DNA from: Nanobdellota archaeon
GTDB lineage: Archaea; Nanobdellota; Nanobdellia; SCGC-AAA011-G17; JACPIM01
Assembly (NCBI GenBank): GCA_038046025.1
Contig: JBBSWZ010000075.1
Coordinates: 1 to 36,491, forward strand
Reading direction: 5' to 3'
Length of the DNA stretch: 36,491 bases
The stretch's first letter is position 1; every line of letters starts with the position of its first letter. Shown one piece after another: positions 3-22,202 of this stretch. The notes below the pieces were generated by a model. That model worked only from the letters and a program-made list of their open reading frames with translations, was not told the origin of the DNA and did not search any database. Position numbers and translations under genes: made by a program.

Positions 3-179
3 TATGAATTGGTTTATGATGATAGTGACAAAGTGCCTTTGGCTTTTGTAAATGGTATGTTGATTGGTCCTATGAGAATATGGAAGATTAATTATCCTCT
101 AAATTTTAAGTTAAATGAAACTGAATATGAATATTATACTAGATTTGATTATCCTGATCCTAGATTACAGTTGCCTTAG
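3..179 (+). CDS. 3' end of an unidentified gene (partial, enters from window start)
   Basis: The frame is open from the window edge to TAG 177-179 (...VPLAFVNGMLIGPMRIWKINYPLNFKLNETEYEYYTRFDYPDPRLQLP*). No motif recognised. Convergent with 176..1444 and overlaps it by 4 nt. Confidence 0.3.
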   Translation, partial: YELVYDDSDKVPLAFVNGMLIGPMRIWKINYPLNFKLNETEYEYYTRFDYPDPRLQLP

Positions 180-1444
180 ATTAATTTATTCTCTTTTAAT
201 TTATTAAAAATTGTCTTTGCTACAAATTCATTTCCAAATTTACTATAGTGTCCTCCATATTCTGTGTTGTCTGAGTATAATCTATCTAAATCTTTAACAT
301 TCAGTAATTCTTCTGTTAAGTCAATTATTATGAGATCATCTTTTAATGCTTGTTTAATATCTTGGTAGAAATGTTTATGCTTTTTTATATATGAAACATC
401 ATCTTTTTGAGGTAAAAATGTGAATACTGGAATGAATTTCTGTTCTTTTGAATAATTTATGAAATCTCTTATAATAGCTATTAATAAATTTGTGATTTCT
501 TTTTGTTTGTAGAGTTTTAAGCGCCATGCTTTGTTTATCCTCATTATCTTTTGCATTGCTTTTGCTTTATTTTTTTCAGATAGATTCCAGTAAATTAAAG
601 GGATATTCCTTGTTGGATTTTTTAAGATTGAGATTAAATAAGGAAATTGGATAAGTTCTTTTCTAAATTTAAATTTGTAGAAAAAATCTTCTTTTATTAT
701 TTCATCAATATATTTTTTATAATTATTATATTTATCTTCTGAGTCTATTGGTGTTTTTATCAATCTTAATTTGTTATTTTCTAATTTAAATCTTGGTTTA
801 AATGCAAATGTGTTTCCATATTCATAGAAATGCTTCCATGTGCTCATTATTCTGCTTACTGTATCTGGCACTACTCCTAATAACACTATTTTAGTTTTAT
901 TTTTTGGATATTCTTTTTTTAATCTTAATAATGCTTGGTCTATTCCATGATTACCTACACCAAAATTAGGCACATTAGATTTAGTTAATTTTGATAAGTA
1001 ATAAGGCCATGTTTCATTATCGTTTACTTGTCTGCTGAAAGTGAAAGAGTCTCCATAGCAAGAGATAATTGATTTTTTGTTTTCAAAGTTTGGATTTGTT
1101 CTTGCTCCATTTTTATTAATAGTCCATTTAGTTTTACCAAATTTACCTTTTTCCTCATGCTCAGTGTTTGGTTTTCTGATCCAACCTAATTCTGGATCAA
1201 AACCATGTGGCATGAACTTTTTTATACCTTCTGGATCTAATTTTGGTAGTAGATCTTTATTTTTGGTTATTAACCATTGAAATTTATTCCTTAAATGGTC
1301 TATTAGTAATTTTGATATTATTTCTAAGAATAGTAAAATAGATGCGTAGATTAGTAAGCCAGTGAGGTTAAATTTTAGATAGGATAGTATAGCTATTGCT
1401 ATAATAATTAATGAAACTATTACAGATTTGTAGTTGTATATCAT
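176..1444 (-). CDS. Membrane-anchored SGNH/GDSL-like hydrolase or acyl-esterase
   Basis: 422-aa ORF. It has an N-terminal hydrophobic segment (VIVSLIIIAIAILSYL...). GDS block: ISCYGDSFTFS. Gly block: NFGVGNHGIDQ. C-terminal ...YGGHYS... is a possible DxxH-type block. The ATG (1442-1444) overlaps the stop of the upstream gene by 1 nt. Confidence 0.5.
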   Translation of the reverse strand: MIYNYKSVIVSLIIIAIAILSYLKFNLTGLLIYASILLFLEIISKLLIDHLRNKFQWLITKNKDLLPKLDPEGIKKFMPHGFDPELGWIRKPNTEHEEKGKFGKTKWTINKNGARTNPNFENKKSIISCYGDSFTFSRQVNDNETWPYYLSKLTKSNVPNFGVGNHGIDQALLRLKKEYPKNKTKIVLLGVVPDTVSRIMSTWKHFYEYGNTFAFKPRFKLENNKLRLIKTPIDSEDKYNNYKKYIDEIIKEDFFYKFKFRKELIQFPYLISILKNPTRNIPLIYWNLSEKNKAKAMQKIMRINKAWRLKLYKQKEITNLLIAIIRDFINYSKEQKFIPVFTFLPQKDDVSYIKKHKHFYQDIKQALKDDLIIIDLTEELLNVKDLDRLYSDNTEYGGHYSKFGNEFVAKTIFNKLKENKLI

Positions 1445-2232
1445 TACGCATTTGGGTTATAGAACCTATTTAAATTATTTTCTTTTAGCCATTTAGTTGC
1501 TTTTTCATAGTCTTCGTTAGTGTCAAATTCCATCCAACCATTACTTATTATTATTGGATTTACTTCGTGATTTTTGTTTATTAATGATTGAATCATGTCT
1601 GTCATGTAAGCTTTTTTGAATGATTTAGAGTTTAACCATGGTACATCTTTGTCCCAGAATTTTTCTTTATTTTCATTATATACTTTTTTTAAGGCTTTAA
1701 CTCCTTTTTTTGAGAATTTTATTAAGCCAACATATCTTGTTCTTGCTTTTTCTAATTTGCAGTCTGGTGTGCCTAATTCAACAACTTTATCATCTTGTAT
1801 TATGAAACTTTCAACATCTTCTTCAGGATTGTCTAATCTAGCTTGCCAATATGGCCAATAAGAATTATCTGTAGTTACACCAATATCTACATCTGAATCC
1901 AGAATTTGTTGAATAATCCTCTTTTCATATAAAATATCTGCATAACAAACTAAAACTTCATCATTTAATTCTTGCTCTGCGCAGAACAAAGAAGCAACCA
2001 TATTTGTGTTTCCAAAATCTGGATTGTTGTAGTATTTTACTTTTTTTATGTTTACTTTATCTGGCATGTAGCCTGTTATTATTGAAATATCTGTTATACC
2101 ACAAGATCTTAGTGTTTCAACTTGTCTTTGAATTAATGATTTACCTGCAAAATTTAACATTCCTTTTGGTAGATTTTTTGTGTATTTATCTAATCTTGTA
2201 CCCATTCCCGCTGCTAATATTATTGCTTTCAT
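1444..2232 (-). CDS. LicC/GlmU-type NTP-transferase (putative cytidylyltransferase)
   Basis: The N-terminal MKAIILAAGMGTRL...LPKGML is the canonical nucleotidyltransferase G-loop. About 260 aa. The track start at 2241 is a TTG. The first ATG at 2230-2232 forms an ATGA overlap with the upstream stop (2229-2231), so I prefer 2232. Confidence 0.75.
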   Translation of the reverse strand: MKAIILAAGMGTRLDKYTKNLPKGMLNFAGKSLIQRQVETLRSCGITDISIITGYMPDKVNIKKVKYYNNPDFGNTNMVASLFCAEQELNDEVLVCYADILYEKRIIQQILDSDVDIGVTTDNSYWPYWQARLDNPEEDVESFIIQDDKVVELGTPDCKLEKARTRYVGLIKFSKKGVKALKKVYNENKEKFWDKDVPWLNSKSFKKAYMTDMIQSLINKNHEVNPIIISNGWMEFDTNEDYEKATKWLKENNLNRFYNPNA

Positions 2233-2915
2233 TTTTTCCAAAATAATTCTTTGTTTATGAACGCTTTAACTAATTTTTCATCTAATTCTTTGTCTGAGTT
2301 ATCTCTTTCTGGATGCCATAATATTCCTGCTATTGGATAATCTGGATGGTAAATTCCTTCAATAATTTTATCATCTGAGATTGCAAAATGTTTTAGTTTT
2401 GATGATAATTCTTTTTCTGTAAAACCTTGACTATGAAATGAATTTACAGTTGTTTTATTTTTTCCTAAGAATTTTGAAGATTCTTTATCTGTTATTTTAA
2501 TTTTATGTGTTACTGCAATATGATTAGTATTTAATTCTTCCTTTAAATTTTGGATTAAACTTCCCCTAAAGTAAACATTTAGAAATTGAGTTCCTCTACA
2601 TTCTGTAAAGACTGGTAATTTTTTTTGGATTGCTAAATCTAGTAATTTTTTTTCTGTATTATCTCTATTATCTGAATGATCTGATTTATATTTTGGTTCT
2701 TGATTGTATAATTTTGGATTTACGTTATTTCCTCCTGATAATATTATTCCGTGAATTGGTAATTCGAAGTATTTTTCAAAGTTTTTTGTGTTGTTAGAAA
2801 CTGGGATTAGCTTAATTCCATATTTTTCATAGTATCCAACATAATCCTGCTCTAGAGCATCTCTATTTGCTCCTTTTTCTGCAGGTACATCTCTTTGTGA
2901 AATTAGGACGAACAT
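2229..2915 (-). CDS. Class I glutamine amidotransferase-like / peptidase C26 gamma-glutamyl amidohydrolase
   Basis: 228 aa. GIILSGGNNVNP. Nucleophile elbow FTECRGTQFLNV (C-R-G-x-Q, as in PuuD-type C26 enzymes). HSQG... then ILWHPE supplying the His-(Pro)-Glu pair. One nt separates its ATG from the upstream stop. Confidence 0.75.
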   Translation of the reverse strand: MFVLISQRDVPAEKGANRDALEQDYVGYYEKYGIKLIPVSNNTKNFEKYFELPIHGIILSGGNNVNPKLYNQEPKYKSDHSDNRDNTEKKLLDLAIQKKLPVFTECRGTQFLNVYFRGSLIQNLKEELNTNHIAVTHKIKITDKESSKFLGKNKTTVNSFHSQGFTEKELSSKLKHFAISDDKIIEGIYHPDYPIAGILWHPERDNSDKELDEKLVKAFINKELFWKK

Positions 2916-2916
2916 G

Positions 2917-5775
2917 TTATACTCCTTTAAGATTAGTTATCTTATTCCCTTCACAATCTAACACTATGGATGATGAATTTTTAATATTATCGTATAAATT
3001 GCCACATCCAATTGCTGCTGGCAATCCAAATTCAGCACATCTTATAGACATATGTGAAGCTACTCCTCCATATTTAGTTATTAAACCAGCGGGATTTTTT
3101 GTGAATATCCAATCATATCCTGGGTCTCCATTCTCTAATAAAACAATCTTTCCCTTTAGGTCTGGTATTTCTTCTTTTTTTATTTTATTTAGATCAACTA
3201 GATCAGCGTAAATTTTTTTATTGGTTATAAAATTGGGCTTTGCTGTGAATTCAGATACTACATCAATATCTTTTTCTGAAAGTATTACTGGTGGTAAGAT
3301 TAGTTTTCTATTTATTTCCCTTTCTTTTTTTCTAGTTTCAATTAATTTTAAAAAAGACTTTTGTATTTCTTCTAAATTTTCTACATCTATTAGTCTAAAT
3401 AGATTTTCCAAAGCTAAAAAAGCCAAATCCTTTCTGGATAAGCTAATTTTTTCCCCCGCCTTTGCTATTAATTCTAAGGCTTCACTTAAATTCCTAGAAA
3501 ATTCAAATTTAGATAGCTCTCTTGCTTCTAAAGATTTTTTTATAAATTCGAATAATAATTCTGAGTTAATATTTAAGTTGTGTGAATTTAATTCTGATGA
3601 AATTTTATTGTGTATCTCTTGTGGTATTTTGAATGATGGTTCTTTATATTGTGATGATTTAAGATTAGAAAATAGGCTTGGATTAGAATCATATCTTAAG
3701 TTTGTGATATCATAAGTTCCTGGTCTTAGATGTCCATAGTTTTTTAAGAATTTTTCTTTTGTTAATTTTTTTTGTGTTAGTTTGTGAAAATCCTTAGTTA
3801 GCTGTTTTGCAATTGTATTTATAGAGTTTAAGAAAGAGTCATAAAATTGTTGATCTATCAAATTCCTATTTAATAGACTTTTTAATATTATTTTGCTTAT
3901 AAAAGCTAATCTGGCTATTCTAGAAAAGTGCAATGTTCCTTCCTTACAGCTTTCAAGAAGCCTTTTAGCTTGCTGTATTAGTTCTTGAGGAGTTAAATCT
4001 GATTTAAGCTCTATCTCTTTTACTTGTTCTCTTACAGATCTCATAGATTTTATCGAAGATAGATCTTTTTCTATTAAATCTTTATTTAGAAGGTTATTAG
4101 TTAATTTAATTAGTTCTTCTCTTAGTTCTTTTATTTCATTATAACTAAAATGGTTTTTTAGTTCTTTTATTCTTTCATCGAAAGTCAGATCATAACATGT
4201 ATAAAGAATATCAAATTCTACTTTGTCCTGTAATTCTGGATTGTTTTTTAATTTTTTTAAGTAGAAATTTACTAGTTTTTCTGATAGCGAATCTGATAGC
4301 GAATCTGGAATGAATGAATTAAAGTCATTTCTAACATTAATATATGGTTTGTTTCCAAATAGAACAAGAAGTTTGGCTGGTGAAACTTTTCTGTAGCCCT
4401 GATATGATCTTGCTTCATGCCATATCGAATCTGTAATTATAAATGAATATAAAGAATAGGCTAAGTGATTTGGGCTGTCTCCTATAATTTCAGCTGGATT
4501 CCAGTCTGGCATATCTGCAAAATGATTTTCATAACCAAAAAGATGATCTGGTTTACTAGATAAAGTGTGGAAGTTTTGTTTTAATTGATCTATTTTGTTT
4601 TTTACTTCTTCATCTAAACGAATATCTTTTTCTAAATTTACTGTAACTGGTCTTACTTGGAATATGATTATTTCTTTATTATCATTAATTGCAAATTCTA
4701 TGTCCAGTGTTAAATCTGGTATTAGGGATTCAATTTCATTTACTGATGTGATTAATTTTTTGAATAATTCCGGAATATTTTTTGGATCAGCAAATTTAGA
4801 AATCTTAATTGTTTTGTTTTCTTGACCTTTTGTTACTGTATCTGTTGAAGTTGTTTTATTATCATAATTTATTACATAATAAGGAGCATTATTTTCTAAG
4901 GATCTTGTGAAAAGAACTCCACTCATAATAATGTTTTCTGTTTGTTTTTGAATTAATATTTGATCTTTTGAATTTCTTGATTTTTTATTTGAATATGATT
5001 CAATAACTTTTATTATTGCGTTTTCTATTTCTCTTTTATTTTCAGATGAGATGTTTAATTCAGAATGAAAATATCCGGCCATTGAAGATTTTGTTGTGTC
5101 CTCCGTAATTGCTGAACTTCTAACTACAACCTTAGATGGGTTAAATGTATTTTGTACATTTTCTAGGATTCTTCCTTTGTTATTTTTCCAATCTAAAACT
5201 GTAAATGAATAAATTTCTTCTATTTTTGAATTTTTTAGTAGAGGTTTAAGATTTTTTAGAGTTTCAGCTTTAGTTGAGATTATTGATTGTTTAATCTCTG
5301 ATTTTTTGAAGTTTCTTAGTTTGAAAAAATTTGTAAATTCACCTAAATTTTGGAACTTTCCTTTATATTTATCAAGTAGGGTTGTTATTAGGTTTAAATC
5401 TGAAAATTGGTCATAGTTAGGATGTTTTATTATTTTTCCATTGATTGAGTTTAAGTAATCTGATTCTGGGAAATAATTGTAGTCTTCACTCCTAACCAAG
5501 ATTATTTCTGAATTTGGAAACTCTTTGTGTATTTTTTTTAGATTTTCTGTAGAATCTCTGCTTTCTTGTAAAATAACTCTATCAACACATTTTAAATTTT
5601 CAATTACTGCTTTTCTTTCATCTGGAGTTATGATAGATTCATCTGTTAAAATGCTACAGACATGAAAATCGGCTTGATTTTGGGCAAATTTTAAAGCTCT
5701 TAAATGTCCAAAATGGAAAAAATCTGTAGCTATTGTAGAATATGCTATTTTCCTAATTTTACTAGCTTCTACCAT
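2917..5775 (-). CDS. Fusion protein: HxGH cytidylyltransferase-like domain + PPDK_N ATP-grasp + PEP-utilizer phosphohistidine (swivel) domain
   Basis: The N-terminus has ...TDFFHFGHLRALKFA...CSILTDE..., a TagD/CTP_transf_like HxGH motif. The middle has VVVRSSAITEDTTKSSMAGYF, a PPDK_N/PEP-synthase ATP-grasp signature. The C-terminus has LITKYGGVASHMSIRCAEFGLPAAIGCG, the GG-x-x-SH phosphohistidine mobile domain. The track start 5781 is TTG. The first ATG is at 5773-5775. Confidence 0.75.
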   Translation of the reverse strand: MVEASKIRKIAYSTIATDFFHFGHLRALKFAQNQADFHVCSILTDESIITPDERKAVIENLKCVDRVILQESRDSTENLKKIHKEFPNSEIILVRSEDYNYFPESDYLNSINGKIIKHPNYDQFSDLNLITTLLDKYKGKFQNLGEFTNFFKLRNFKKSEIKQSIISTKAETLKNLKPLLKNSKIEEIYSFTVLDWKNNKGRILENVQNTFNPSKVVVRSSAITEDTTKSSMAGYFHSELNISSENKREIENAIIKVIESYSNKKSRNSKDQILIQKQTENIIMSGVLFTRSLENNAPYYVINYDNKTTSTDTVTKGQENKTIKISKFADPKNIPELFKKLITSVNEIESLIPDLTLDIEFAINDNKEIIIFQVRPVTVNLEKDIRLDEEVKNKIDQLKQNFHTLSSKPDHLFGYENHFADMPDWNPAEIIGDSPNHLAYSLYSFIITDSIWHEARSYQGYRKVSPAKLLVLFGNKPYINVRNDFNSFIPDSLSDSLSEKLVNFYLKKLKNNPELQDKVEFDILYTCYDLTFDERIKELKNHFSYNEIKELREELIKLTNNLLNKDLIEKDLSSIKSMRSVREQVKEIELKSDLTPQELIQQAKRLLESCKEGTLHFSRIARLAFISKIILKSLLNRNLIDQQFYDSFLNSINTIAKQLTKDFHKLTQKKLTKEKFLKNYGHLRPGTYDITNLRYDSNPSLFSNLKSSQYKEPSFKIPQEIHNKISSELNSHNLNINSELLFEFIKKSLEARELSKFEFSRNLSEALELIAKAGEKISLSRKDLAFLALENLFRLIDVENLEEIQKSFLKLIETRKKEREINRKLILPPVILSEKDIDVVSEFTAKPNFITNKKIYADLVDLNKIKKEEIPDLKGKIVLLENGDPGYDWIFTKNPAGLITKYGGVASHMSIRCAEFGLPAAIGCGNLYDNIKNSSSIVLDCEGNKITNLKGV

Positions 5776-5781
5776 ACCCAA

Positions 5782-5846
5782 TCACAAATATTTGCTAAGA
5801 TAATCTATTTATAAATCTTTATATATAGCTGAATTTTGCTATTCTT
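5782..5846. promoter_or_regulatory. Divergent promoter region with two back-to-back TATA-like boxes
   Basis: TTTATAAA (5808-5815, palindromic) and TTTATATA (5818-5825) lie in a 65-71 bp divergent spacer. The second box ends 22 nt before ATG 5847, which is leaderless geometry. The first box is 33-40 nt from ATG 5775 on the other strand. Confidence 0.4.
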
Positions 5847-7355
5847 ATGGCTAAAAAATTGAGCAATGAGTTAAAAGTAATATTGGCTAGTGCTAGTATT
5901 GCTTTTTTTGGATCTATAGTTAATAGGGTTTTTAATTATGTTTTAAGGATTTTAATAGCGAGGGGTTTGAGTGTTGAAGATTATGGATTATTTACTATTG
6001 CTATTATGGTAATGAGATTTACTATTGCTATATCTTTATTAGGTTTAGGAGAAGGGTTAGTTAGATATGTTTCATATTACAGAGGTTTAAAAGATGAAAG
6101 TAAGATTAAAGGAACAATATTTAGTTCATTTGGAATATCATTTTTATTTAGTTTAGTTATAACTATAATATTATTTTTTAGTGCTGAGTTTATAGCTGTA
6201 AATTGGTTTAATAGTCAAGAATTAATTCCTTTATTGAAAATATTTGTTTGGGCAATACCTATTGGTGTTATTGGTTCAAATTTAACAAGTTTGAATTTAG
6301 CTTTTGAAAAAATAAAATATAATTTCTGGTTAGTTGATTTTGGATCTCAAAGTTTAAGAGTTTTAACAATTGGTTTAGTTATTTTACTTGGATTAGGTAT
6401 TATTGGAGTTGGTTTTGCTTATTTGATTAGTTTTTGGTTTATAATTATAGTTATGTATTTAGTTGCAGAATCAAAAGTATTTCCTATCTTGAGGAGTAAA
6501 GTTAAATCAGAATATAATTTGAAAGAATTGTTTAGTTATTCTTGGCCTTTAATTTTTGTTGGTGTCTTAGGGTATGTTATGGGATGGACTGATACTTTTA
6601 TGATTGCTAATTTAACTAATATAACAAATGTTGGTTTGTATAATGCTGCTTTGCCTTTGGCTAATTTGCTGACATTATTACCTTTAATGTTTAGTCCTTT
6701 ATTTTTACCTTTGATAACCAAGAATTATGCTAAAAAGAAAATGGAATTAGTAAGTAGCTTAACTAAGAATGTTGGAAAATGGAGTTATATGGTTAACTTT
6801 CCTGTTTTACTTTTAATGTTATTATTTCCTGGATTATTTATAAATATTTTATTTGGTGTTGATTATTTAAGTGCAACTAATGCTTTGATTTATCTGGCTA
6901 TTGGGTTTTTCTTTTTTTCTTTGAGTTATCCTTCAATGCACTTATTAGGTATGATTAAGAAAACTAAATTGAGTTTGATAAATTTATTAATTGTTATCCC
7001 AATTAATGTTATATTAAATTATTATTTAATTATTGATTATGGTATAACTGGAGTTGCGATTGCTACTGCTATTTCATATATAATTTATAGTTTATTATTT
7101 ATTTTAGAAGGATATTATTATTTGAAATTAGTTCCTATTTCATTTAGATTTTGGAAGGCTACTTTAGCTGGTTTGATATCTTTAGGTATGATATTATTTA
7201 TAAGAAATTTAATTGAGGTTAATTTAGGATTTGCTATTTTGTTGGGAATTATGTTTTCTATAATTTATTTAGGTCTTTTATTCTTGTTTAAAGCTTTTGA
7301 TGAGTATGATAAGATGTTAGTTGGATTTTTGAGAACAAAGTTTTTAAAGAGATAA
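5847..7355 (+). CDS. Wzx-like oligosaccharide/polysaccharide flippase (MOP superfamily)
   Basis: 502 aa and almost entirely hydrophobic, with about 12-14 predicted helices. The N-terminal pattern (...ASASIAFFGSIVNRVFNYVLRILIARGLSVEDYGLF...) is typical of polysaccharide biosynthesis/flippase proteins. Located in a glycan cluster. Confidence 0.8.
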   Translation: MAKKLSNELKVILASASIAFFGSIVNRVFNYVLRILIARGLSVEDYGLFTIAIMVMRFTIAISLLGLGEGLVRYVSYYRGLKDESKIKGTIFSSFGISFLFSLVITIILFFSAEFIAVNWFNSQELIPLLKIFVWAIPIGVIGSNLTSLNLAFEKIKYNFWLVDFGSQSLRVLTIGLVILLGLGIIGVGFAYLISFWFIIIVMYLVAESKVFPILRSKVKSEYNLKELFSYSWPLIFVGVLGYVMGWTDTFMIANLTNITNVGLYNAALPLANLLTLLPLMFSPLFLPLITKNYAKKKMELVSSLTKNVGKWSYMVNFPVLLLMLLFPGLFINILFGVDYLSATNALIYLAIGFFFFSLSYPSMHLLGMIKKTKLSLINLLIVIPINVILNYYLIIDYGITGVAIATAISYIIYSLLFILEGYYYLKLVPISFRFWKATLAGLISLGMILFIRNLIEVNLGFAILLGIMFSIIYLGLLFLFKAFDEYDKMLVGFLRTKFLKR

Positions 7356-7399: not shown

Positions 7400-7657
7400 A
7401 TGTATGAACTATATCCAGCAAACAGGAGAGTTGAAAGGAAATTAGATAATTTAATTAAAACAAGAAAAGACATTATAGAGAAATTAAAAAGATTAAAAGA
7501 AGATCCTAGAAAGAATGTTGTGGCACATAAATTACATGGGCGTTTGGCTGGGAAATGGTCTTGTTGGTTAGGTTCAAATCTAAGAATAATATATATTATC
7601 AATGATTCTGAGAAAAAGATTGAAATTGAAGCTGTCGGAACACATAAAATCTATTGA
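7400..7657 (+). CDS. RelE/ParE-superfamily toxin (type II TA)
   Basis: 85 aa. The pattern ...DPRKN..AHKLHGRLAGKWSCWLGSNLRIIYIINDSEKKIEIEAVGTHKIY matches the RelE/YoeB-like layout (KL.G....W..R.G..RIIY.I......I.I...G.H..Y). Confidence 0.65.
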   Translation: MYELYPANRRVERKLDNLIKTRKDIIEKLKRLKEDPRKNVVAHKLHGRLAGKWSCWLGSNLRIIYIINDSEKKIEIEAVGTHKIY

Positions 7658-7889: not shown

Positions 7890-8651
7890 ATGGTTACTGT
7901 TAAAGAATTGTGGGAGACTACTTTACACCCAGATGAGGATCAAGCTTATTTGAGTTTTAAGATTTTAAGATTTTTTGGGATATATATTGCTAGAATTTTA
8001 ATTCCTTTTCCTATAACACCAACGCAAGTTACATTACTTGGACTATTAATTGGGTTAATTGGTGTTCCTTTTTTATGGTTTGGTAATTATTGGTATTCTT
8101 TAATTGGTATAGGAGCTTATCACTTTCATTGGATTATTGATGCTACTGATGGGGTTATAGCTAGATATAAGAAACAAGGTTCTATATCGGGTGGTTTTGT
8201 TGATTCAATGGCTCACAGAATTATACAGCCTTTAGTATTACTTGGAATGGGTATTGGTGGTTATATGGCTTTTACAGAGGGAATTGATGTGTTTGGTTAT
8301 TTTACTTTTCAAAGAATGTGGTTTTTATGGGCTGGTATGTCTGCTTCAATCTTTTTTTTAATGCATTATTTAGTTGATATGAAAAAATATGAAGTTATTT
8401 TAATGGAATCTAAATTTTCAGATAAGAAAACTTTAGATTTGTTAAGAGGAGGATTAAGTGATTATATTGCTAGAAAAGGTATTAAAGCTAAATTATTTAA
8501 TTTTTTAAGGATAAACCCATTTATGATTATATTTTTTGCTGCTATATTCAATTTTTTACATTGGTTAGTTGTTTTTTATGGTGTAGTTTACCCATTATTA
8601 TTTATAAAGGCAATGTATTCTAAGTATTTATATTTTAGAAGCCTGCGATAG
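7890..8651 (+). CDS. CDP-alcohol phosphatidyltransferase-family membrane protein (variant motif)
   Basis: 253 aa, polytopic. The motif DATDGVIARYKKQGSISGGFVDSMAH fits D-x2-D-G-x2-A-R-x8-G-x3-D-x3-D, except that the last Asp is His. Confidence 0.7.
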   Translation: MVTVKELWETTLHPDEDQAYLSFKILRFFGIYIARILIPFPITPTQVTLLGLLIGLIGVPFLWFGNYWYSLIGIGAYHFHWIIDATDGVIARYKKQGSISGGFVDSMAHRIIQPLVLLGMGIGGYMAFTEGIDVFGYFTFQRMWFLWAGMSASIFFLMHYLVDMKKYEVILMESKFSDKKTLDLLRGGLSDYIARKGIKAKLFNFLRINPFMIIFFAAIFNFLHWLVVFYGVVYPLLFIKAMYSKYLYFRSLR

Positions 8652-9948: not shown

Positions 9949-11715
9949 ATGGATAATAAAAGGTGGTACTTCATTTTTAGTGGTTTAGTTTTTTTAATGG
10001 TTTTATATACCTTCTTCGTTATAAGTGAAGAATTATCTTCAGATGGTTGGACTATAAATGTAAGTTCAGGTACAATAAATGTAACGAGTGCTGATATAAG
10101 TGCTCCATTTGAGAACGGTTCAAGTATATTGGCGAGTGAGATAACATTAAATATTACTTTTGTCGATGGAAATGGTTCATCAAACCAGACATGGTACTTA
10201 TATAATTCTAGTGATGGTAACCTTGCTGCTGCAATTGTATTAAATATATCAGCTGAAGCAGCTAATGAAACTGATCTTGGAACTTTTGATTTGGCTAATG
10301 GTACTATAGATCTTAATAGTACAATTGCTGCAGATAGTGCTACTGTTAAAACTTATTATATACAAACAAATTTAACAAATACAACTATATTAGAGACTGG
10401 TTATAATATTGATAGCAATTTTGTACAGATATTGGCTTTAAAGATATATCCAAACGCTCTAGTTGGAGAGCCATTTAATAATGGAACTGTTAATGTGAAT
10501 GGATATTCTGCTAAGGGTGGTACTGATAGACTGAATAATATAACAGAACAGGCTAATTTAAGTTCTACTGTTTTGTTTAATGCGAGTGTAGCTGCAGGAA
10601 ACACTACAACTAATGTTACATGGTATGTTATCAATGGCTCTACTGAAATTATTTTAGGTTCTCTACATGAAATAGGTAATACTACGTTAGAATTTGATAC
10701 GGGCAATGGAACTTTGAGTGATGGTACTTATAATCTAACTCTTAGTTATACTAATGCTACTATTGGAGATGGTGTAGTATACGATGCTGCAAATTCATTC
10801 AATACAACTGTTTTAAATTTAAATATAGACAATACTGCTCCTAGCTTAGTTGTAGAACTACCAGTCAATAACTCTAACCTTACTACCACTGTAATTGATC
10901 TTAATTTTACAGCAAGTGATGCTGCCACCACATTAGGATCCTGTTGGTATAATCTAAATTTTGCTTCATCTAATACTACTGTTGCTGATTGTTCAAATAT
11001 AACCTTTACCGCTCTAGATGGTAGAAATAATATTACCCTTTATGCAAATGATTCAGTTGATAATCTTAATACATCATTATTTATAGAGTTTAGTGTTGAT
11101 CTTACGCATCCTAGTGCAACAGTTACACTTAGTGATTCTGATGGTATAATTTATACTAGATCAACTCAGAAAGTTAAATGTGACTTTGATGAGGGTAGTG
11201 GCGGTACTGGATTAGACAACCCCACTAGGAAATTGCAGTATCAAAAACCAAACGGGGATATTTTATCCTTTGAGGATGAAGATGCAGCACAAGAGCAGAC
11301 CTTTAAAGAAATTGATACTGCTACTACTGGTGATTATACTGTAAGGTGTTCTGTGAGTGATGTTGCAGGATTGACAACTACAGCAGAGAAAACATTTAGA
11401 GTACATACAAGAGGTGGACCGTCATCAGCAACTAGTGGTGGAGGTGGAGGAACTGCAGTTGAAGGTGTTGAAGGAGGGGAAGATACTGGAGAAGCAGCTC
11501 CGAGTGAACCTAGTGAATCTGGTGCTCCTACAACAGGAATAGGTGGTCCGACTCCTAGTGTATCGGCTCCGGGTGGTGCTGGTGGTACAGTAGCTATAGT
11601 AATAATTGTAATAGTAATTGCAGCTGGTGTGATATATTTCTTAGTTAAAGGAAAGCCTGGGAAGAAGGGACAGATAAAGTTTAGCAGGTCTGAATTATTG
11701 CCTAAAAGAATGTAG
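9949..11715 (+). CDS. Sequon-rich surface (S-layer/adhesin-like) glycoprotein with C-terminal membrane anchor
   Basis: 588 aa. N-terminal signal/anchor WYFIFSGLVFLMVLYTFFVI. About 33 N-x-S/T sequons by hand count in the first ~370 residues. Ig-like repeats follow (DNTAPS...; HPSATVTLSD...). A Gly/Pro/Ser/Glu-rich stalk is followed by the TM segment VAIVIIVIVIAAGVIYFLV and a basic tail KGKPGKKGQ. Confidence 0.7.
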   Translation: MDNKRWYFIFSGLVFLMVLYTFFVISEELSSDGWTINVSSGTINVTSADISAPFENGSSILASEITLNITFVDGNGSSNQTWYLYNSSDGNLAAAIVLNISAEAANETDLGTFDLANGTIDLNSTIAADSATVKTYYIQTNLTNTTILETGYNIDSNFVQILALKIYPNALVGEPFNNGTVNVNGYSAKGGTDRLNNITEQANLSSTVLFNASVAAGNTTTNVTWYVINGSTEIILGSLHEIGNTTLEFDTGNGTLSDGTYNLTLSYTNATIGDGVVYDAANSFNTTVLNLNIDNTAPSLVVELPVNNSNLTTTVIDLNFTASDAATTLGSCWYNLNFASSNTTVADCSNITFTALDGRNNITLYANDSVDNLNTSLFIEFSVDLTHPSATVTLSDSDGIIYTRSTQKVKCDFDEGSGGTGLDNPTRKLQYQKPNGDILSFEDEDAAQEQTFKEIDTATTGDYTVRCSVSDVAGLTTTAEKTFRVHTRGGPSSATSGGGGGTAVEGVEGGEDTGEAAPSEPSESGAPTTGIGGPTPSVSAPGGAGGTVAIVIIVIVIAAGVIYFLVKGKPGKKGQIKFSRSELLPKRM

Positions 11716-16154: not shown

Positions 16155-17204
16155 ATGGAAAGAAAAATACAAATTGTTAATCATGGAACTAAAACAAAAG
16201 AAGATATTTCTGTTAAGAAAGTAGATACTAAAATATTTTATGATGAGGGATTAACAAAACAGTTTAAAGAATTTTCTAAAAGAAATAATGAAGTTAATTT
16301 TAATTGGTATAGTTCAGATCTTCCATTTTTTAAATCTCTTAAGGTAGTTAATGGAAAAGTAATATATGAAGTAGGATCAACTACTTCCATAGAAACATTA
16401 GGATTTCTATCTTTAATGAGAAATAGAAAAAATTCATTGGAAGTTTTAAAACAGGGGAAAGGATTTGAAAGGTTTAGGGATTTAATATTAAAAAATGGAG
16501 TTTTTTATTTGACTAAACTTTATTTTAGTATGGGTCAAATTATAATTGGGATTACTAAAGATGAAGAAATTATATTATTAAGGAGATCTAAACAATTGAG
16601 TGAGGGGCCAGGGAGATATAATGTTTTTGCTGGTTTTATCTCAAGTGTTAATGAACTTGATGGAAAGAAAGTTGATATTACTGATTTCTTTGGACAGGCA
16701 AAGGCAGAACTTCTAGAGGAAAGTGGATTAAGTTCTTCTGATTTTGATAATAAAAGACTTCAACTTAATGGTTTGGTCAGGGGTTTATACAATTCTTATT
16801 TGCCAGGATTAGCATGGTCTTATAAGTTTAATTTAACAAGTGATGAAATATTAGGATTGTTAAAGAGGGCTAATAAATTTGATAATGTTCATACAGAGCA
16901 TGATTCTGTTTTGTTTTTACCGATAGATAAGATTGGTTTATTGTTTAGTAAAAAAGGCTTTATTGATAGGAGAGGAGTAAAGTTTGATCCTGCGATAGCT
17001 GAAGATGATAATAGTAAGACTGGTATTGTAGATGATACTATTGGTGCTTTGCTTTCTTATTTGTTAAATAACAATTCTAAATATTTTGAGAAAATTAAAA
17101 GGATACTGAAGCAGAGAAATCTTGCCATTGAGGTAATTGATGTTACTAAGAGTAGTAAAAAGTTTTCTTTTAGAGAAGGGGCTCTGGTGCAACCCTCAAA
17201 ATAA
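16155..17204 (+). CDS. Hypothetical protein with a near-complete Nudix box; its 3' end is altered by the IS insertion
   Basis: 349 aa. GKKVDITDFFGQAKAELLEESGL compared with the Nudix consensus G-x5-E-x7-R-E-U-x-E-E-x-G-U matches G, E, U, E, E, G and U, with E->T and R->A. The last 7 codons (ALVQPSK*) are read from the IS left end. Confidence 0.45.
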   Translation: MERKIQIVNHGTKTKEDISVKKVDTKIFYDEGLTKQFKEFSKRNNEVNFNWYSSDLPFFKSLKVVNGKVIYEVGSTTSIETLGFLSLMRNRKNSLEVLKQGKGFERFRDLILKNGVFYLTKLYFSMGQIIIGITKDEEIILLRRSKQLSEGPGRYNVFAGFISSVNELDGKKVDITDFFGQAKAELLEESGLSSSDFDNKRLQLNGLVRGLYNSYLPGLAWSYKFNLTSDEILGLLKRANKFDNVHTEHDSVLFLPIDKIGLLFSKKGFIDRRGVKFDPAIAEDDNSKTGIVDDTIGALLSYLLNNNSKYFEKIKRILKQRNLAIEVIDVTKSSKKFSFREGALVQPSK

Positions 17205-18027
17205 GCAATAAATAATATTGCATTCTGTCAATATTATAAGTTATTAGTTTGCTTATTAACTCTACCTTCTGAGTTGCACAGCTTCTTGATCTAAGTACAG
17301 AACCATATTTCCTTTTAATCACAGAGAATATAGTCTCTACCTTACTTCTCTGATGATAGTCTTTCCCATATATCTTACTATTCCCTATATGTCCATAATA
17401 ATTAGTATGGCTTCTTACTGGAATAATCGGCATAGCCTTTAATTTCCTAATCACAAAACCTCTATTCTTACGACTATCATATCCTTTATCAGCTATAACT
17501 TGTTTAAAATTTAGATCTCTTACTAGATTTATGAAATCAAGAGTATCATTCCTAACCTTCTTCCTTATTTTGTATCTCATAATAAGCTGTTTTTCAAGAT
17601 CAGCTGATATACTTAATTTCATGAATTGCTTTGTTTTCTGCTTATCGGAGCTATTTCTTAGAGTTTTATAATAATAACTTTTACTTTCTAACTCAAATCC
17701 TGTTGCATCTATTCCAACAGTAACTGCTTGTCTAATACCAAGCAGTTTATGTATTTGTTTCCTAGTCTTATTAACAAATCTAACAATAGTACTATGAGAA
17801 GGTACTCTTGTTAGTCCTAGATGCATTCTCATGTCAGAACTAGCTCTTAGTATAGAAGCTATTCCTCTTGTAGTTGTCTTAAACTTCTGCATTAAGACAT
17901 ATATTGCAAACTTCTGATAGTTGCAATATATCTTGTTAGAATACTTACTAAAGTACCTGGGTAGTGATTTAGCAAGATCAAGTGCATCATCTATAAACTT
18001 TAAATAATCTGAATACTCCTTATTCAT
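17170..18027 (-). CDS. DDE transposase (IS5/IS4 family, DDE_Tnp_1-like)
   Basis: 285 aa. GIDATGFE (first D), ADKGYDSRKNR (second D) and RSKVETIFSVIKRKYG (the E region typical of the IS5 family). A GAGGTG SD lies 7 nt upstream of the ATG at 18025-18027. The ORF reads through the left IR, and its stop lies 10 nt outside it. Confidence 0.8.
   Translation of the reverse strand: MNKEYSDYLKFIDDALDLAKSLPRYFSKYSNKIYCNYQKFAIYVLMQKFKTTTRGIASILRASSDMRMHLGLTRVPSHSTIVRFVNKTRKQIHKLLGIRQAVTVGIDATGFELESKSYYYKTLRNSSDKQKTKQFMKLSISADLEKQLIMRYKIRKKVRNDTLDFINLVRDLNFKQVIADKGYDSRKNRGFVIRKLKAMPIIPVRSHTNYYGHIGNSKIYGKDYHQRSKVETIFSVIKRKYGSVLRSRSCATQKVELISKLITYNIDRMQYYLLLILRVAPEPLL
17172..17179. repeat. Left copy of the 8-bp target-site duplication (AGAGAAGG)
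   Basis: An identical octamer occurs at 18105-18112. Each copy lies one base outside the terminal inverted repeat. Confidence 0.55.
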
Positions 18028-19959: not shown

Positions 19960-20331
19960 TTATTTTTTTATAAATTCAACATTGTCTAGATTTTCAAATT
20001 GTTTATCCCCTGTTAAAAATTTAATTCCTAATTCTTTTGCTTGGGTATAAGAAATACAATCTGTCATAGATAGATTTTTGTTTTTGTTATCTATCCTAAA
20101 TAACATTGCCCTTATGATGGTTTTAGGAGTTGCATGGATAATTGCTGGTGAAACTTCTGCAATATATTCGTTTGCATTATTAACCCTCTCTCGAAACAAT
20201 TTAAAACAAAGTTCGGCAAATATAAAATCGTTAATAACTATGCCTGTCTCTGTAAATTTTTCATAATTTATGTTCTTATTTAAAATCTCTATCAGAGCAT
20301 AAGTATCATAAAGGAAAGTATCTTCATTCAT
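19960..20331 (-). CDS. vapC: PIN-domain toxin VapC
   Basis: The four acidic positions lie in FLYDTYALIEIL, FAELCF, SMTDCISY and LTGDKQF. The track start 20349 is TTG. ATG 20329-20331 overlaps the vapB stop by 8 nt. Confidence 0.75.
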   Translation of the reverse strand: MNEDTFLYDTYALIEILNKNINYEKFTETGIVINDFIFAELCFKLFRERVNNANEYIAEVSPAIIHATPKTIIRAMLFRIDNKNKNLSMTDCISYTQAKELGIKFLTGDKQFENLDNVEFIKK

Positions 20332-20548
20332 TATATAATTCCTTATCAATCTCTCGCATCATTTGTTCTACTGGTTTTTTAAATTTGTGGGCACCGAAAA
20401 ATTTCCTCAGATTCGGTTTGTTTTTCATTATCATAACAATTACTTCATCATTTTCCCGTATTCTAGTATCATCTTTTATGGCACTTTGTGGTACTACTAT
20501 TCCAAATGAATTTCCCCATTTCCTTAGTTTAGATTTTATTTCTATCAT
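20324..20548 (-). CDS. vapB: AbrB/SpoVT/MazE-fold antitoxin VapB
   Basis: 74 aa. LRKWGNSFGIVVPQSAI is the looped-hinge-helix swapped-hairpin signature. Lies immediately upstream of the PIN gene and overlaps it. Confidence 0.75.
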   Translation of the reverse strand: MIEIKSKLRKWGNSFGIVVPQSAIKDDTRIRENDEVIVMIMKNKPNLRKFFGAHKFKKPVEQMMREIDKELYNE

Positions 20549-21647: not shown

Positions 21648-22202
21648 TTATTGTGGATTAATAAATATTTCTATTTTTTCCTTAGAGTATTTATCTAAAG
21701 TTGGTTTTACCCCGAATGGTTTTCTGAATTTATCCAAGAAATATCCATATGGTCTAGCTAATGCTGTATTTAGAACTGCATATGAAGCTAGAGCTACTCC
21801 TGTTTCTTTCCATGAAACTCCTGAAGATTGGAGGATTCCTGTGTAAACTATGCCGTTAAATATTAAACTAGCTGAAGTATCCACTAAAAATTTCCTTGTT
21901 TTACTGCTGCTTTCATCTGCCTTATATATTTGATCGGCATAAAACTGTCTCCATTTTCCAAATGGTCTTCCAAGTATAAAACCTAGTGGGATACTAATTA
22001 ATCTTGCTTTTAATGTTTCATAGGGACCAATACCGGCAATAACTAATTCATTAAAGGCTAATGTTGGTGTATAGAACACATTGATTGCAATACTATCAAC
22101 AAACCAATTTTTTATTTTTCTCTTTAGAGGTGTTGAAGTCAGCCATCTTTGTAGTTTGGTTTCTTCATTACCCATATTAACTATTTGTTCTAATTCTGAC
22201 AC
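21648..22202 (-). CDS. AlaE-like (L-alanine exporter family) small membrane protein
   Basis: ARLISIPLGFILGRPFGKWRQ and ARPYGYFLDKFRKPF resemble E. coli AlaE [21 protein letters not shown] and GAVYGYFLDYCRRLF (from my recall of that sequence). Four hydrophobic segments. The track start 22202 is GTG. An alternative ATG is at 22175. Confidence 0.45.
   Translation of the reverse strand: MSELEQIVNMGNEETKLQRWLTSTPLKRKIKNWFVDSIAINVFYTPTLAFNELVIAGIGPYETLKARLISIPLGFILGRPFGKWRQFYADQIYKADESSSKTRKFLVDTSASLIFNGIVYTGILQSSGVSWKETGVALASYAVLNTALARPYGYFLDKFRKPFGVKPTLDKYSKEKIEIFINPQ

What the first reader, a model, noticed from the sequence alone, without database searches (positions are those of the whole stretch)
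1444..5775. Campylobacter-type phosphoramidate (MeOPN-like) precursor triad in an archaeal-looking glycan island
Three translationally coupled genes encode, in this order: (i) a PPDK_N ATP-grasp + phosphohistidine swivel protein (VRSSAITED...; GGVASH); (ii) a peptidase-C26 / class I amidotransferase-like hydrolase (ECRGTQ...WHPE); (iii) a LicC-type nucleotidyltransferase (AIILAAGMGTRL). From established biochemistry, this combination is what C. jejuni uses to build the O-methyl phosphoramidate capsule modification. There, Cj1418 is an L-glutamine kinase with a PPDK-like fold. Cj1416 is the CTP:phosphoglutamine cytidylyltransferase. Cj1417 is the gamma-glutamyl-CDP-amidate hydrolase that yields cytidine diphosphoramidate. 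As I recall the cj1418c-cj1416c locus, the gene order is the same. P-N-bonded glycan decorations are, to my knowledge, not described for archaea. The island also carries three class I methyltransferases that could supply an O-methyl group. The pathway assignment is inference from domain content and synteny only.
Basis: partly seen in the sequence, partly recalled or inferred. Interest (0 to 1): 0.8.

Follow-up and report, generated by a model that had tools for sequence, protein, structure and literature searches.

The report
Archaeal phosphoramidate-precursor gene cluster
A tiny uncultured archaeon carries a four-gene operon that most likely makes the nitrogen-phosphorus sugar-decoration precursor known from the food-poisoning bacterium Campylobacter, and relatives of this operon occur in hundreds of bacterial and archaeal species, so this "rare" chemistry is probably widespread but untested.

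Summary
On the minus strand, tightly coupled, lie a PPDK-type kinase (2917-5775), a C26/class-I-amidotransferase hydrolase (2229-2915) and a LicC-type nucleotidyltransferase (1444-2232).

- **Kinase:** it passes NCBIfam equivalog NF004508 (872 bits, cut-off 501) and scores 68 bits or less on PEP-synthase and rifampin-phosphotransferase models. IMG names relatives "glutamine kinase".
- **Hydrolase:** its best family is gamma-glutamyl-CDP-amidate hydrolase, though below that model's cut-off.
- **Linkage:** the three families co-occur in 23-24 of 24 archaeal and most of 62 bacterial loci, often in the same order. In other genomes they are fused to each other and to an APS-kinase (Cj1415-type) domain.

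The window has no Cj1415-type kinase. A CDP-alcohol phosphotransferase gene (7890-8651) is a conserved neighbour.

The best reading is synthesis of cytidine diphosphoramidate for a surface phosphoramidate decoration. The transfer step and any methylation are unknown.

This is not unique. At least 573 species genomes carry the kinase, including cultured Haloferax elongans, and a 2024 preprint predicted the same cluster in Borgs. I could not obtain C. jejuni sequences for direct comparison.

The parts
2917..5331 (-). Glutamine-kinase-type domain of the large protein (residues ~151-954). It comprises an ATP-grasp (PPDK_N), a family-specific middle region, and a phosphohistidine swivel domain with GGVASH (His910).
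   Evidence: NCBIfam NF004508 scores 872 bits against a cut-off of 501, covering residues 161-951. Pfam finds PPDK_N and PEP-utilizers and no PEP-utilizers_C. R221/S222/S223/E227/D228 and G905/G906/S909/H910 are invariant in 40 diverse family members.
5332..5775 (-). N-terminal HxGH (HFGH) cytidylyltransferase-like domain fused to the kinase.
   Evidence: Pfam CTP_transf_like, 8.6e-06. It aligns to the Fom1 CyTase domain 5x3d (1.1e-06) and TagD 1coz, including the HxGH motif. HxGH is present in 208 fused family proteins. The fusion is seen in 19 of 24 archaeal loci.
2229..2915 (-). Class I amidotransferase / peptidase C26 hydrolase, the candidate gamma-glutamyl-CDP-amidate hydrolase (Cj1417-like).
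   Evidence: Peptidase_C26, 2.6e-36. Best NCBIfam hit is NF045546, 96 bits, below its cut-off of 250. Cys106/His201/Glu203 are invariant in 70 of 70 triad-linked homologues. Its ATG lies one base after the kinase stop.
1444..2232 (-). LicC-type nucleotidyltransferase, the candidate CTP:phosphoglutamine cytidylyltransferase (Cj1416-like).
   Evidence: NTP_transf_3, 7.2e-16. Best solved structure is LicC 1jyk. It is 32-46% identical over its full length to triad-linked nucleotidyltransferases of Vibrio, C. tetani, Legionella, Pseudomonas, Cohnella and Haloferax. Its start overlaps the hydrolase stop as ATGA.
176..1444 (-). Fourth coupled gene: a membrane-anchored SGNH/GDSL-fold protein ('f425'). 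Its role is unknown; it is a candidate downstream transferase or esterase.
   Evidence: TAATG overlap with the nucleotidyltransferase. It is on the same strand as the kinase in all 11 census loci that carry it, and next to the triad in L087 and L088. AlphaFold2 pLDDT is 93.5. Foldseek matches SGNH enzymes (CgnD, TesA, PatB, DltD). G131-D132-S133 and H399 are invariant. There is no Pfam or NCBIfam family.
5782..5846 (.). Divergent intergenic region between the operon and the flippase gene. An A/T-rich TATA-like element (tttataaata) lies about 35 nt upstream of the kinase ATG.
   Evidence: Read directly from the sequence. Its function as a promoter is inferred, not tested.
5847..7355 (+). Wzx-type polysaccharide flippase, divergent from the operon.
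   Evidence: Polysacc_synt, 3.2e-23. This flippase family lies next to the kinase in 14 of 24 archaeal loci.
7890..8651 (+). CDP-alcohol phosphotransferase-family membrane protein, a candidate user of a CDP-linked donor.
   Evidence: PF01066, 3.3e-06. The motif DxxDGxxARx8Gx3Dx3H is present, with the last Asp replaced by His. This family lies within 10 kb of the kinase in 11 of 24 archaeal and 6 of 62 bacterial loci, and directly adjacent in L011, L074 and L079.

Best explanation
The four-gene operon (cytidylyltransferase-fused kinase, hydrolase, LicC-type nucleotidyltransferase, SGNH-fold protein) is an archaeal version of the Campylobacter phosphoramidate-donor pathway.

Inferred steps:
1. 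[quoted passage not shown]
2. A cytidylyltransferase joins the product to CMP from CTP, giving CDP-L-glutamine.
3. The Cys-His-Glu hydrolase removes glutamate, leaving cytidine diphosphoramidate.
4. That P-N donor is used to decorate a surface glycan or lipid built by the surrounding island.

Shown here: family membership of the kinase, intact catalytic motifs in all domains, operon coupling, conserved co-occurrence, and gene fusions.

Inferred only: the substrates and products. They are transferred from the C. jejuni biochemistry summarised in PMC11800397 and PMC6429109.

Unknown:
- which of the two cytidylyltransferase modules acts on phosphoglutamine
- how the phosphoramidate is transferred
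- whether it is methylated

Because the window has no Cj1415-type 3'-kinase, the donor may be used without 3'-phosphorylation. The neighbouring CDP-alcohol phosphotransferase and/or the SGNH-fold protein may carry out the transfer; this last point is speculative.
For: Kinase:
- NF004508 equivalog scores 872 bits (cut-off 501), against 68 bits or less for PEP-synthase models and 33 bits for rifampin phosphotransferase.
- IMG names 48-54%-identical relatives 'glutamine kinase'.
- The ATP-grasp and GGxxSH residues are invariant.

Hydrolase:
- The best family is gamma-glutamyl-CDP-amidate hydrolase (96 bits, against 59 for PuuD).
- The catalytic triad is invariant in 70 of 70 homologues.

Synteny:
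- The hydrolase is present in 23 of 24 archaeal and 51 of 62 bacterial loci. The LicC type is present in 24 of 24 and 47 of 62.
- The strict order kinase > hydrolase > LicC holds in 48 of 85 loci.
- The same order occurs on Vibrio and Azospirillum plasmids.

Fusions:
- LicC-kinase, kinase-hydrolase, APS-kinase-kinase and APS-kinase-CyT-kinase fusions all occur.
- An APS-kinase gene lies in the operon in 8 archaeal and 18 bacterial loci. This mirrors Cj1415.

Context:
- Flippase, DegT aminotransferases, glycosyltransferases, an acetyltransferase and a surface protein surround the operon.
- Four genes are translationally coupled.
Against: - No direct comparison with Cj1416-Cj1418 was possible. 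Campylobacter was not among the 80 loci kept, and the primary papers are not held.
- The hydrolase is below the curated cut-off (96 against 250).
- No curated model exists for Cj1416, so that assignment rests on synteny alone.
- The window has no APS-kinase, TagF-like or sulfatase-type gene and no linked methyltransferase. The pathway is therefore incomplete relative to Campylobacter.
- The extra cytidylyltransferase domain has no counterpart in the characterised pathway. It could mean a different or additional CDP-activated intermediate.
- No archaeal phosphoramidate glycan has been observed chemically.
Confidence: 0.65

Rival explanations
1. The cluster makes a CDP-activated amino-acid or small-alcohol donor that is transferred whole, as a phosphodiester-linked decoration, as CDP-threonine is in Clostridioides difficile FtaABCD. 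The product would then be, for example, phospho-glutamine or another phospho-compound rather than a phosphoramidate. The second cytidylyltransferase module and the CDP-alcohol phosphotransferase would be the key players.
For: - There are two cytidylyltransferase modules per locus: CyT or LicC fused to the kinase, plus a separate LicC gene.
- Transferases that use CDP donors recur next to the triad: CDP-OH_P_transf in 17 loci, TagF-like in 15, and LicD in L088.
- There is precedent for a CDP-amino-acid donor used by a TagF-like enzyme.
- The CyT domain is closest to Fom1, which cytidylylates a phosphonate.
Against: - The Cys-His-Glu hydrolase is nearly universal in the loci and is sometimes fused to the kinase. 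This argues that removal of the glutamyl part is integral to the pathway.
- APS-kinase modules, as in Campylobacter, are common.
- The kinase is a full-length member of the glutamine-kinase equivalog family.
Confidence: 0.15
2. The phosphoramidate product is not a glycan decoration. It is instead a lipid head group, a soluble metabolite or a natural product, such as a phosphoramidate nucleotide or antibiotic.
For: - The conserved CDP-alcohol phosphotransferase partner usually makes lipid head groups. Its best NCBIfam hit is archaetidylinositol phosphate synthase, below cut-off.
- A HIT-family gene lies inside the related cluster L003.
Against: - The operon sits inside a typical glycan island, divergent from a Wzx flippase.
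- In C. tetani the homologous set lies in a flagellin glycosylation island.
- In bacteria it lies next to glycosyltransferases.
Confidence: 0.12
3. The large protein is an ordinary PEP synthase, pyruvate phosphate dikinase or antibiotic phosphotransferase, and the neighbouring genes are unrelated.
For: Pfam sees only generic PPDK_N and PEP-utilizers domains. The closest solved structures are PEP synthase and rifampin-phosphotransferase-type proteins.
Against: - It scores 68 bits or less on PEP-synthase models with cut-offs of 598-1063, and 33 bits on rifampin phosphotransferase with a cut-off of 999.
- It has no PEP-binding TIM-barrel domain.
- PDB matches are limited to the swivel region at E about 1e-6.
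- The conserved triad and the fusions are hard to explain this way.
Confidence: 0.02

Closest known systems
Campylobacter jejuni MeOPN donor pathway Cj1418 (L-glutamine kinase), Cj1417 (gamma-glutamyl-CDP-amidate hydrolase), Cj1416 (CTP:phosphoglutamine cytidylyltransferase), Cj1415 (cytidine diphosphoramidate 3'-kinase)
   Same: - The same three protein families in the same transcriptional order.
- The kinase passes the family's curated model.
- The hydrolase's best-scoring family is the Cj1417 model.
- Both sit inside a surface-glycan gene island.
- Relatives of the archaeal operon also carry the APS-kinase module.
   Different: - The kinase carries an extra N-terminal HxGH cytidylyltransferase domain.
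- The window has no Cj1415-type kinase.
- A coupled SGNH-fold gene and a conserved CDP-alcohol phosphotransferase neighbour are present.
- No linked methyltransferases are present.
- The host is a DPANN archaeon without a bacterial-type capsule.
- Similarity to the actual Cj proteins could not be measured.
Predicted MeOPN cluster of Cobalt Borg (genes 308-311), an extrachromosomal element of Methanoperedens (bioRxiv 10.1101/2024.11.05.622173)
   Same: It is an archaeal-associated, purely computational prediction of glutamine kinase, hydrolase and cytidylyltransferase in a glycoconjugate region.
   Different: - In the Borg, the second cytidylyltransferase is fused to a PEP-mutase domain rather than to the kinase.
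- The host lineage differs.
- I did not compare sequences.
Clostridioides difficile FtaABCD (CDP-threonine pathway for the flagellin Type A glycan)
   Same: The logic is shared. A phospho-compound is cytidylylated and the CDP-linked donor is used by a CDP-alcohol-phosphotransferase-type enzyme to decorate a protein-linked glycan.
   Different: - Fta has no PPDK-type kinase and no amidotransferase-type hydrolase.
- Its product is a phosphodiester, not a phosphoramidate.
Fom1 cytidylyltransferase domain / TagD-type HxGH cytidylyltransferases
   Same: The N-terminal domain shares the HxGH motif and aligns over about 80 residues.
   Different: - The C-terminal RTEGISTT-type motif of TagD is not evident.
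- The substrate here is unknown.
- The domain is fused to a kinase rather than to a PEP mutase.

Membership tests
L-glutamine kinase family (Cj1418 type; NCBIfam NF004508 / PRK05849) | Full-length match to the curated family model above its cut-off | tested here: met
   872.2 bits against a cut-off of 501; residues 161-951 match profile positions 4-788 of 789. The library labels the model only 'hypothetical protein'. Its link to Cj1418 rests on my own knowledge and on IMG naming close relatives 'glutamine kinase'.
L-glutamine kinase family (Cj1418 type; NCBIfam NF004508 / PRK05849) | ATP-grasp domain plus phosphohistidine swivel domain with the catalytic His, and no PEP/pyruvate-binding TIM barrel | tested here: met
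   PPDK_N and PEP-utilizers are found and PEP-utilizers_C is not. RSSxxxED and GGxxSH (His910) are invariant in 40 members.
L-glutamine kinase family (Cj1418 type; NCBIfam NF004508 / PRK05849) | Closer to Cj1418 than to PEP synthases or rifampin phosphotransferases (reciprocal best hit or phylogeny) | tested here: inconclusive
   HMM scores separate it clearly from PEP-synthase and RPH models. No Cj1418 sequence was available, because the genome scan kept only the best 80 of at least 573 loci and none was Campylobacter.
L-glutamine kinase family (Cj1418 type; NCBIfam NF004508 / PRK05849) | [quoted passage not shown] | not testable with these tools
   Needs an enzyme assay with 31P-NMR.
gamma-Glutamyl-CDP-amidate hydrolase (Cj1417 type; NCBIfam NF045546) | Match to the curated equivalog model above its cut-off | tested here: not met
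   96 bits against a cut-off of 250. It is still the best family by a wide margin; the next is PuuD at 59 bits. Triad-linked hydrolases of Vibrio and Azospirillum also score only 107-127 bits, so the cut-off appears specific to Campylobacter.
gamma-Glutamyl-CDP-amidate hydrolase (Cj1417 type; NCBIfam NF045546) | Class I amidotransferase fold with a Cys-His-Glu triad, encoded next to the glutamine kinase | tested here: met
   Peptidase_C26, 2.6e-36. C106/H201/E203 are invariant in 70 of 70 homologues. The gene starts one base after the kinase stop.
CTP:phosphoglutamine cytidylyltransferase (Cj1416 type) | LicC/NTP_transf_3 fold with the GxGxRL loop, encoded in the triad | tested here: met
   NTP_transf_3, 7.2e-16. 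The motif LAAGMGTRL is present. It is 32-46% identical over its full length to triad-linked homologues in six other genera.
CTP:phosphoglutamine cytidylyltransferase (Cj1416 type) | Orthology to Cj1416, or activity on phosphoglutamine | not testable with these tools
   NCBIfam has no curated model for it, no solved structure exists, and no Cj1416 sequence was available.
Complete Campylobacter-type MeOPN system | Cj1415-type (APS-kinase family) cytidine diphosphoramidate 3'-kinase | tested here: not met
   An unfiltered six-frame HMM scan of the window finds nothing (best E = 1.3). The module is present in 8 of 24 archaeal loci and is fused to the kinase in P0018 and P0029. It could lie elsewhere in this genome.
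Complete Campylobacter-type MeOPN system | Cj1421/Cj1422-type phosphoramidate transferase | not testable with these tools
   No sequence or model was available. Candidates here are the CDP-alcohol phosphotransferase (7890-8651) and the SGNH-fold protein (176-1444).
Complete Campylobacter-type MeOPN system | O-methylation of the phosphoramidate by a linked methyltransferase | tested here: inconclusive
   Three class I methyltransferases lie in the island. None is adjacent to the operon or conserved with the triad; each family occurs in 8 loci or fewer. Even in C. jejuni, Cj1419 and Cj1420 have no assigned function (PMC11800397).

The most novel reading that the evidence does not exclude
DPANN archaea, and perhaps marine Thaumarchaeota, use cytidine diphosphoramidate directly, without the 3'-phosphorylation seen in Campylobacter. 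It would serve as donor for a CDP-alcohol-phosphotransferase-family membrane enzyme and/or a membrane-anchored SGNH-fold enzyme. The product would be a phosphoramidate-bearing lipid or lipid-linked glycan. That would be a P-N surface chemistry not known in archaea, with a transfer mechanism different from the bacterial one. The kinase-fused HxGH cytidylyltransferase would channel phosphoglutamine.
Probability: 0.15. Interest if true: 0.8.

Novelty: new variant of a known kind. Interest (0 to 1): 0.55.

Why it matters
O-methyl phosphoramidate is treated in the literature as a rarity found only in Campylobacter (PMC6429109). The data here show that the donor-forming gene set is old and widespread:
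- at least 573 species genomes carry the kinase
- a coherent archaeal clade exists in DPANN
- copies occur in marine Thaumarchaeota and in a cultured haloarchaeon

Biological P-N surface decorations may therefore be common and overlooked, including on the tiny symbiotic archaea whose cell-surface contacts define their lifestyle.

The variable downstream modules offer a handle on the still-unknown phosphoramidate transfer step. These are the APS-kinase, TagF-like, CDP-alcohol phosphotransferase, sulfatase-type and SGNH-fold genes and two unknown families. Haloferax elongans ATCC BAA-1513 gives a cultivable archaeal test system.

Tried and rejected
1. **C. jejuni Cj1415-Cj1422 sequences for reciprocal comparison.**
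   - The Raushel primary papers are not held.
   - The plasmid collection has no Campylobacter hit.
   - A guess that the lowest-GC unfused representative, P0263, was Campylobacter-like was wrong; its relatives are gut Firmicutes and Melainabacteria.
   - The single genome scan kept the best 80 of at least 573 loci, none of them Campylobacter.
2. **The 588-aa Pfam-less ORF (9949-11715) as a Cj1421/22-like transferase.** Rejected. It is a repeat-rich surface protein with a C-terminal membrane anchor. It shows no similarity to the long N-terminal part of the Azospirillum APS-kinase fusion or to same-sized neighbours in L001 and L003.
3. **A hidden APS-kinase, TagF-like, sulfatase-type or f205/f242 gene in the window.** None was found in a six-frame scan.
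4. **An anticorrelation between APS-kinase and CDP-type transferases.** This would have argued for two alternative routes. No clear pattern emerged.
5. **tRNA and Rfam scans of the window.** Nothing was found.
6. **The idea that the CyT-kinase fusion is specific to archaea.** Rejected. It also occurs in Clostridium tetani, Parabacteroides, Gastranaerophilales and Lactobacillales.

Full report
**What is there**

Four genes lie head to tail on the minus strand.

- **Gene 1 (2917-5775; longest ORF to 5781).** It encodes a 952/954-aa protein with three Pfam domains:
  - CTP_transf_like, residues 20-101, 8.6e-06
  - PPDK_N, 3.2e-12
  - PEP-utilizers, residues 876-944, 2.7e-11
- **Gene 2 (2229-2915).** A 228-aa Peptidase_C26 / class I amidotransferase (2.6e-36).
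- **Gene 3 (1444-2241, probable ATG at 2232).** An NTP_transf_3 / LicC-type nucleotidyltransferase (7.2e-16). Its best solved relative is LicC 1jyk.
- **Gene 4 (176-1444).** A 422-aa protein with no Pfam family.

The junctions are TAA-c-ATG, ATGA and TAATG, so all four genes are translationally coupled.

Proteins identical to genes 1 and 4 are deposited from a 'Nanoarchaeota archaeon' MAG. The window has no tRNA or Rfam match.

**Identity of the large protein**

Against NCBIfam, the kinase part (residues 161-951) matches equivalog NF004508 (PRK05849) end to end, at 872 bits against a cut-off of 501. The best PEP-synthase model gives 68 bits (cut-off 945), and the rifampin phosphotransferase model gives 33 bits (cut-off 999). 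No PEP-binding TIM-barrel domain is present. Solved structures match only the swivel region, at E about 1e-6.

IMG names relatives that are 46-54% identical 'glutamine kinase'. In an alignment of 40 diverse members, the ATP-grasp residues R221/S222/S223/E227/D228 and the swivel motif G905-G906-x-x-S909-H910 are invariant.

The refutation condition 'clusters with genuine PEP synthases or antibiotic phosphotransferases' is therefore not met. A direct comparison with Cj1418 could not be made.

**The other two enzymes**

The hydrolase's best family is NF045546, gamma-glutamyl-CDP-amidate hydrolase. It scores 96 bits, ahead of 59 bits for PuuD-type hydrolases, but below the curated cut-off of 250. 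Hydrolases in the equivalent position on Vibrio and Azospirillum plasmids score 107-127 bits, so the cut-off seems tuned to Campylobacter. Cys106, His201 and Glu203 are invariant in all 70 triad-linked homologues.

NCBIfam has no model for Cj1416. The window's nucleotidyltransferase is 32-46% identical over its full length to the nucleotidyltransferases found in the same position in Vibrio, Clostridium tetani, Legionella, Pseudomonas, Cohnella and Haloferax.

**Do the three families travel together?**

Yes.

- An exhaustive profile search finds 1,550 representatives (50% identity clusters) of the kinase at E <= 1e-30.

I called ORFs in 86 loci and built HMMs for the recurrent neighbour families. 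The loci were 24 archaeal ones, including the window, and 62 bacterial ones.

| Family | Archaeal loci (of 24) | Bacterial loci (of 62) |
|---|---|---|
| Hydrolase | 23 | 51 |
| LicC-type nucleotidyltransferase | 24 | 47 |

The bacterial figures are lower bounds, because some contigs are truncated and one high-GC locus was lost to my ORF filter. The strict order kinase > hydrolase > nucleotidyltransferase holds in 48 of 85 loci. It also holds on annotated Vibrio and Azospirillum plasmids.

Domain fusions tie the steps together:
- LicC-kinase, about 56 of 267 sampled proteins
- kinase-hydrolase, abundant in gut Firmicutes
- APS-kinase-kinase and APS-kinase-CyT-kinase

The APS-kinase family is that of Cj1415. 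It is present as an operon gene in 8 archaeal and 18 bacterial loci. [quoted passage not shown] This pattern is strong comparative evidence that the triad makes the same or a very similar donor.

**What differs from Campylobacter**

1. **A fused cytidylyltransferase domain.**
   - The kinase carries an N-terminal HxGH cytidylyltransferase domain. It aligns with the Fom1 CyTase domain (5x3d) and with TagD.
   - HxGH is kept in 208 fused proteins.
   - The fusion is present in 19 of 24 archaeal loci. It is not specific to archaea: Clostridium tetani, Parabacteroides, Gastranaerophilales and others have it.
   - In lineages where a LicC-like domain is fused instead, a separate LicC gene is usually still present. 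Many systems therefore have two cytidylyltransferase modules, and the role of the second is unexplained.
2. **No Cj1415-type kinase.** The window has no APS-kinase, TagF-like or sulfatase-type gene, and none of the two unknown families f205 and f242. The six-frame scan was unfiltered.
3. **The fourth coupled gene belongs to the system.**
   - Its family is on the same strand as the kinase in all 11 census loci that carry it.
   - It follows the triad in L088, and sits beside it in a Thaumarchaeota MAG, L087.
   - It has about 900 homologues, many from marine samples.
   - AlphaFold2 gives a confident model (pLDDT 93.5) with an SGNH/GDSL fold behind an N-terminal membrane helix. Foldseek matches CgnD, TesA, PatB and DltD. 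G-D-S133 and H399 are invariant.
4. **A conserved CDP-alcohol phosphotransferase neighbour.**
   - The gene is at 7890-8651, with motif DxxDGxxARx8Gx3Dx3H.
   - The family lies within 10 kb of the kinase in 11 of 24 archaeal and 6 of 62 bacterial loci. It is directly adjacent in three.
   - TagF-like CDP-glycerol-type transferases take the equivalent position in 15 other loci.
   - A CDP-amino-acid donor used by a TagF-like enzyme has just been shown in C. difficile. This makes direct use of a CDP-linked phosphoramidate donor plausible, but it remains inference.

**Archaeal distribution**

Kinase-bearing genomes include:
- Woesearchaeota, Pacearchaeota, Nanoarchaeota, Micrarchaeia and Altiarchaeales
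- a Marine Group I thaumarchaeote single-cell genome
- a 'Euryarchaeota' MAG
- the cultured Haloferax elongans ATCC BAA-1513

Most archaeal kinases are each other's nearest relatives. This is therefore an established archaeal clade rather than contamination. The Haloferax copy is of the LicC-fused type and is nearest to bacterial sequences. It sits in a complete operon: sulfatase-type, LicC-kinase, hydrolase, LicC, APS-kinase.

**Novelty**

No paper in the held library links phosphoramidates with DPANN archaea. A 2024 preprint already predicts the same enzymes in a Borg element of Methanoperedens. IMG's pipeline already labels DPANN homologues as glutamine kinase. The triad itself is a new member of a known pathway. 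I rate the whole as a new variant of a known kind because of three features:
- the fused cytidylyltransferase
- the missing 3'-kinase
- the SGNH and CDP-alcohol-phosphotransferase partners

**Limits**

- Substrates and products are transferred from Campylobacter biochemistry, not shown here.
- No C. jejuni sequence could be retrieved.
- The three methyltransferases of the island are distant and are not conserved partners. An O-methyl group is therefore unsupported.
- The end acceptor (glycan, protein or lipid) is unknown.

Noticed in passing
L057:7497-14442 (Haloferax elongans ATCC BAA-1513, NZ_AOLK01000024.1): A cultured haloarchaeon carries a complete operon: sulfatase-type protein, LicC-fused kinase, hydrolase, LicC-type transferase and APS-kinase. 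Its kinase is nearest to bacterial LicC-fused kinases, which suggests a separate acquisition.
   Followed up: partly
L087:7636-15471 and one search hit list: The SGNH-fold fourth gene has hundreds of ~55%-identical homologues from marine metagenomes (TARA). One Thaumarchaeota MAG has it flanked by two sulfatase-type genes and followed by the nucleotidyltransferase, hydrolase and a split kinase. The pathway may be common in marine ammonia-oxidising archaea.
   Followed up: partly
L010:7557-8884; L014:16122-17551; L020:13863-15200: Two families of unknown function (~205 aa and ~240 aa, the latter with a faint Formyl_trans_N hit) occur as an adjacent pair right after the triad in many loci (16 and 23 loci). 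In a Pacearchaeota genome they are fused into one protein. They form an alternative downstream module.
   Followed up: partly
L003:10967-14105: In the closest related Woesearchaeota locus, a HIT-family gene and a low-molecular-weight phosphatase gene are inserted among the triad genes. HIT enzymes are known nucleoside phosphoramidases.
   Followed up: no
window 9949-11715: A 588-aa Pfam-less protein has repeat-like extracellular regions, a Gly/Pro/Thr-rich stalk and a C-terminal membrane anchor. It lies in a stretch of higher G+C (0.32-0.36, against ~0.28 elsewhere). It is probably a surface protein and a possible glycosylation target.
   Followed up: partly
window 7400-7657 and 19960-20349: A YafQ-like toxin gene lies between the flippase and the CDP-alcohol phosphotransferase. 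A PIN-domain gene lies further on. Toxin-antitoxin-type genes are thus embedded in the glycan island.
   Followed up: no
window 17170-18027: A DDE transposase (DDE_Tnp_1 plus DUF772) lies inside the island and overlaps the end of a Pfam-less 349-aa ORF. This is a sign of mobility or rearrangement in the island.
   Followed up: no
window 23602-25035 and 29315-30397: The glycan island contains a B12-binding radical SAM enzyme and a SPASM-domain radical SAM enzyme. This hints at unusual sugar methylation or modification chemistry.
   Followed up: no
window 21648-22202: A protein matching the bacterial L-alanine exporter family AlaE (2.2e-27) lies next to a GT2 glycosyltransferase in this archaeal contig.
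   Followed up: no
L009, L013, L017, L019, L028, L029: Six third-party-annotated MAGs are labelled 'uncultured Methanosarcinales'. Their CyT-kinase genes are 46-55% identical to the window's, and their neighbourhoods look like Woesearchaeota loci. The taxonomic labels may be unreliable.
   Followed up: no
L004:8458-11358; L033, L037, L052, L057, L063 kinases: Where a LicC-like domain is fused to the kinase N-terminus, its glycine loop reads GxxRGIRRL rather than GxGTRL, and a separate canonical LicC gene is still present. Two non-equivalent cytidylyltransferase modules per system seem to be the rule outside Campylobacter.
   Followed up: partly
L006:6148-13235 (Clostridium tetani): In C. tetani the set sulfatase-type, APS-kinase, CyT-kinase, hydrolase and LicC lies inside a flagellin glycosylation island with Maf/MptE-like, NeuB and flagellin genes. 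This suggests a phosphoramidate-type decoration of flagellin glycans in a pathogen.
   Followed up: no
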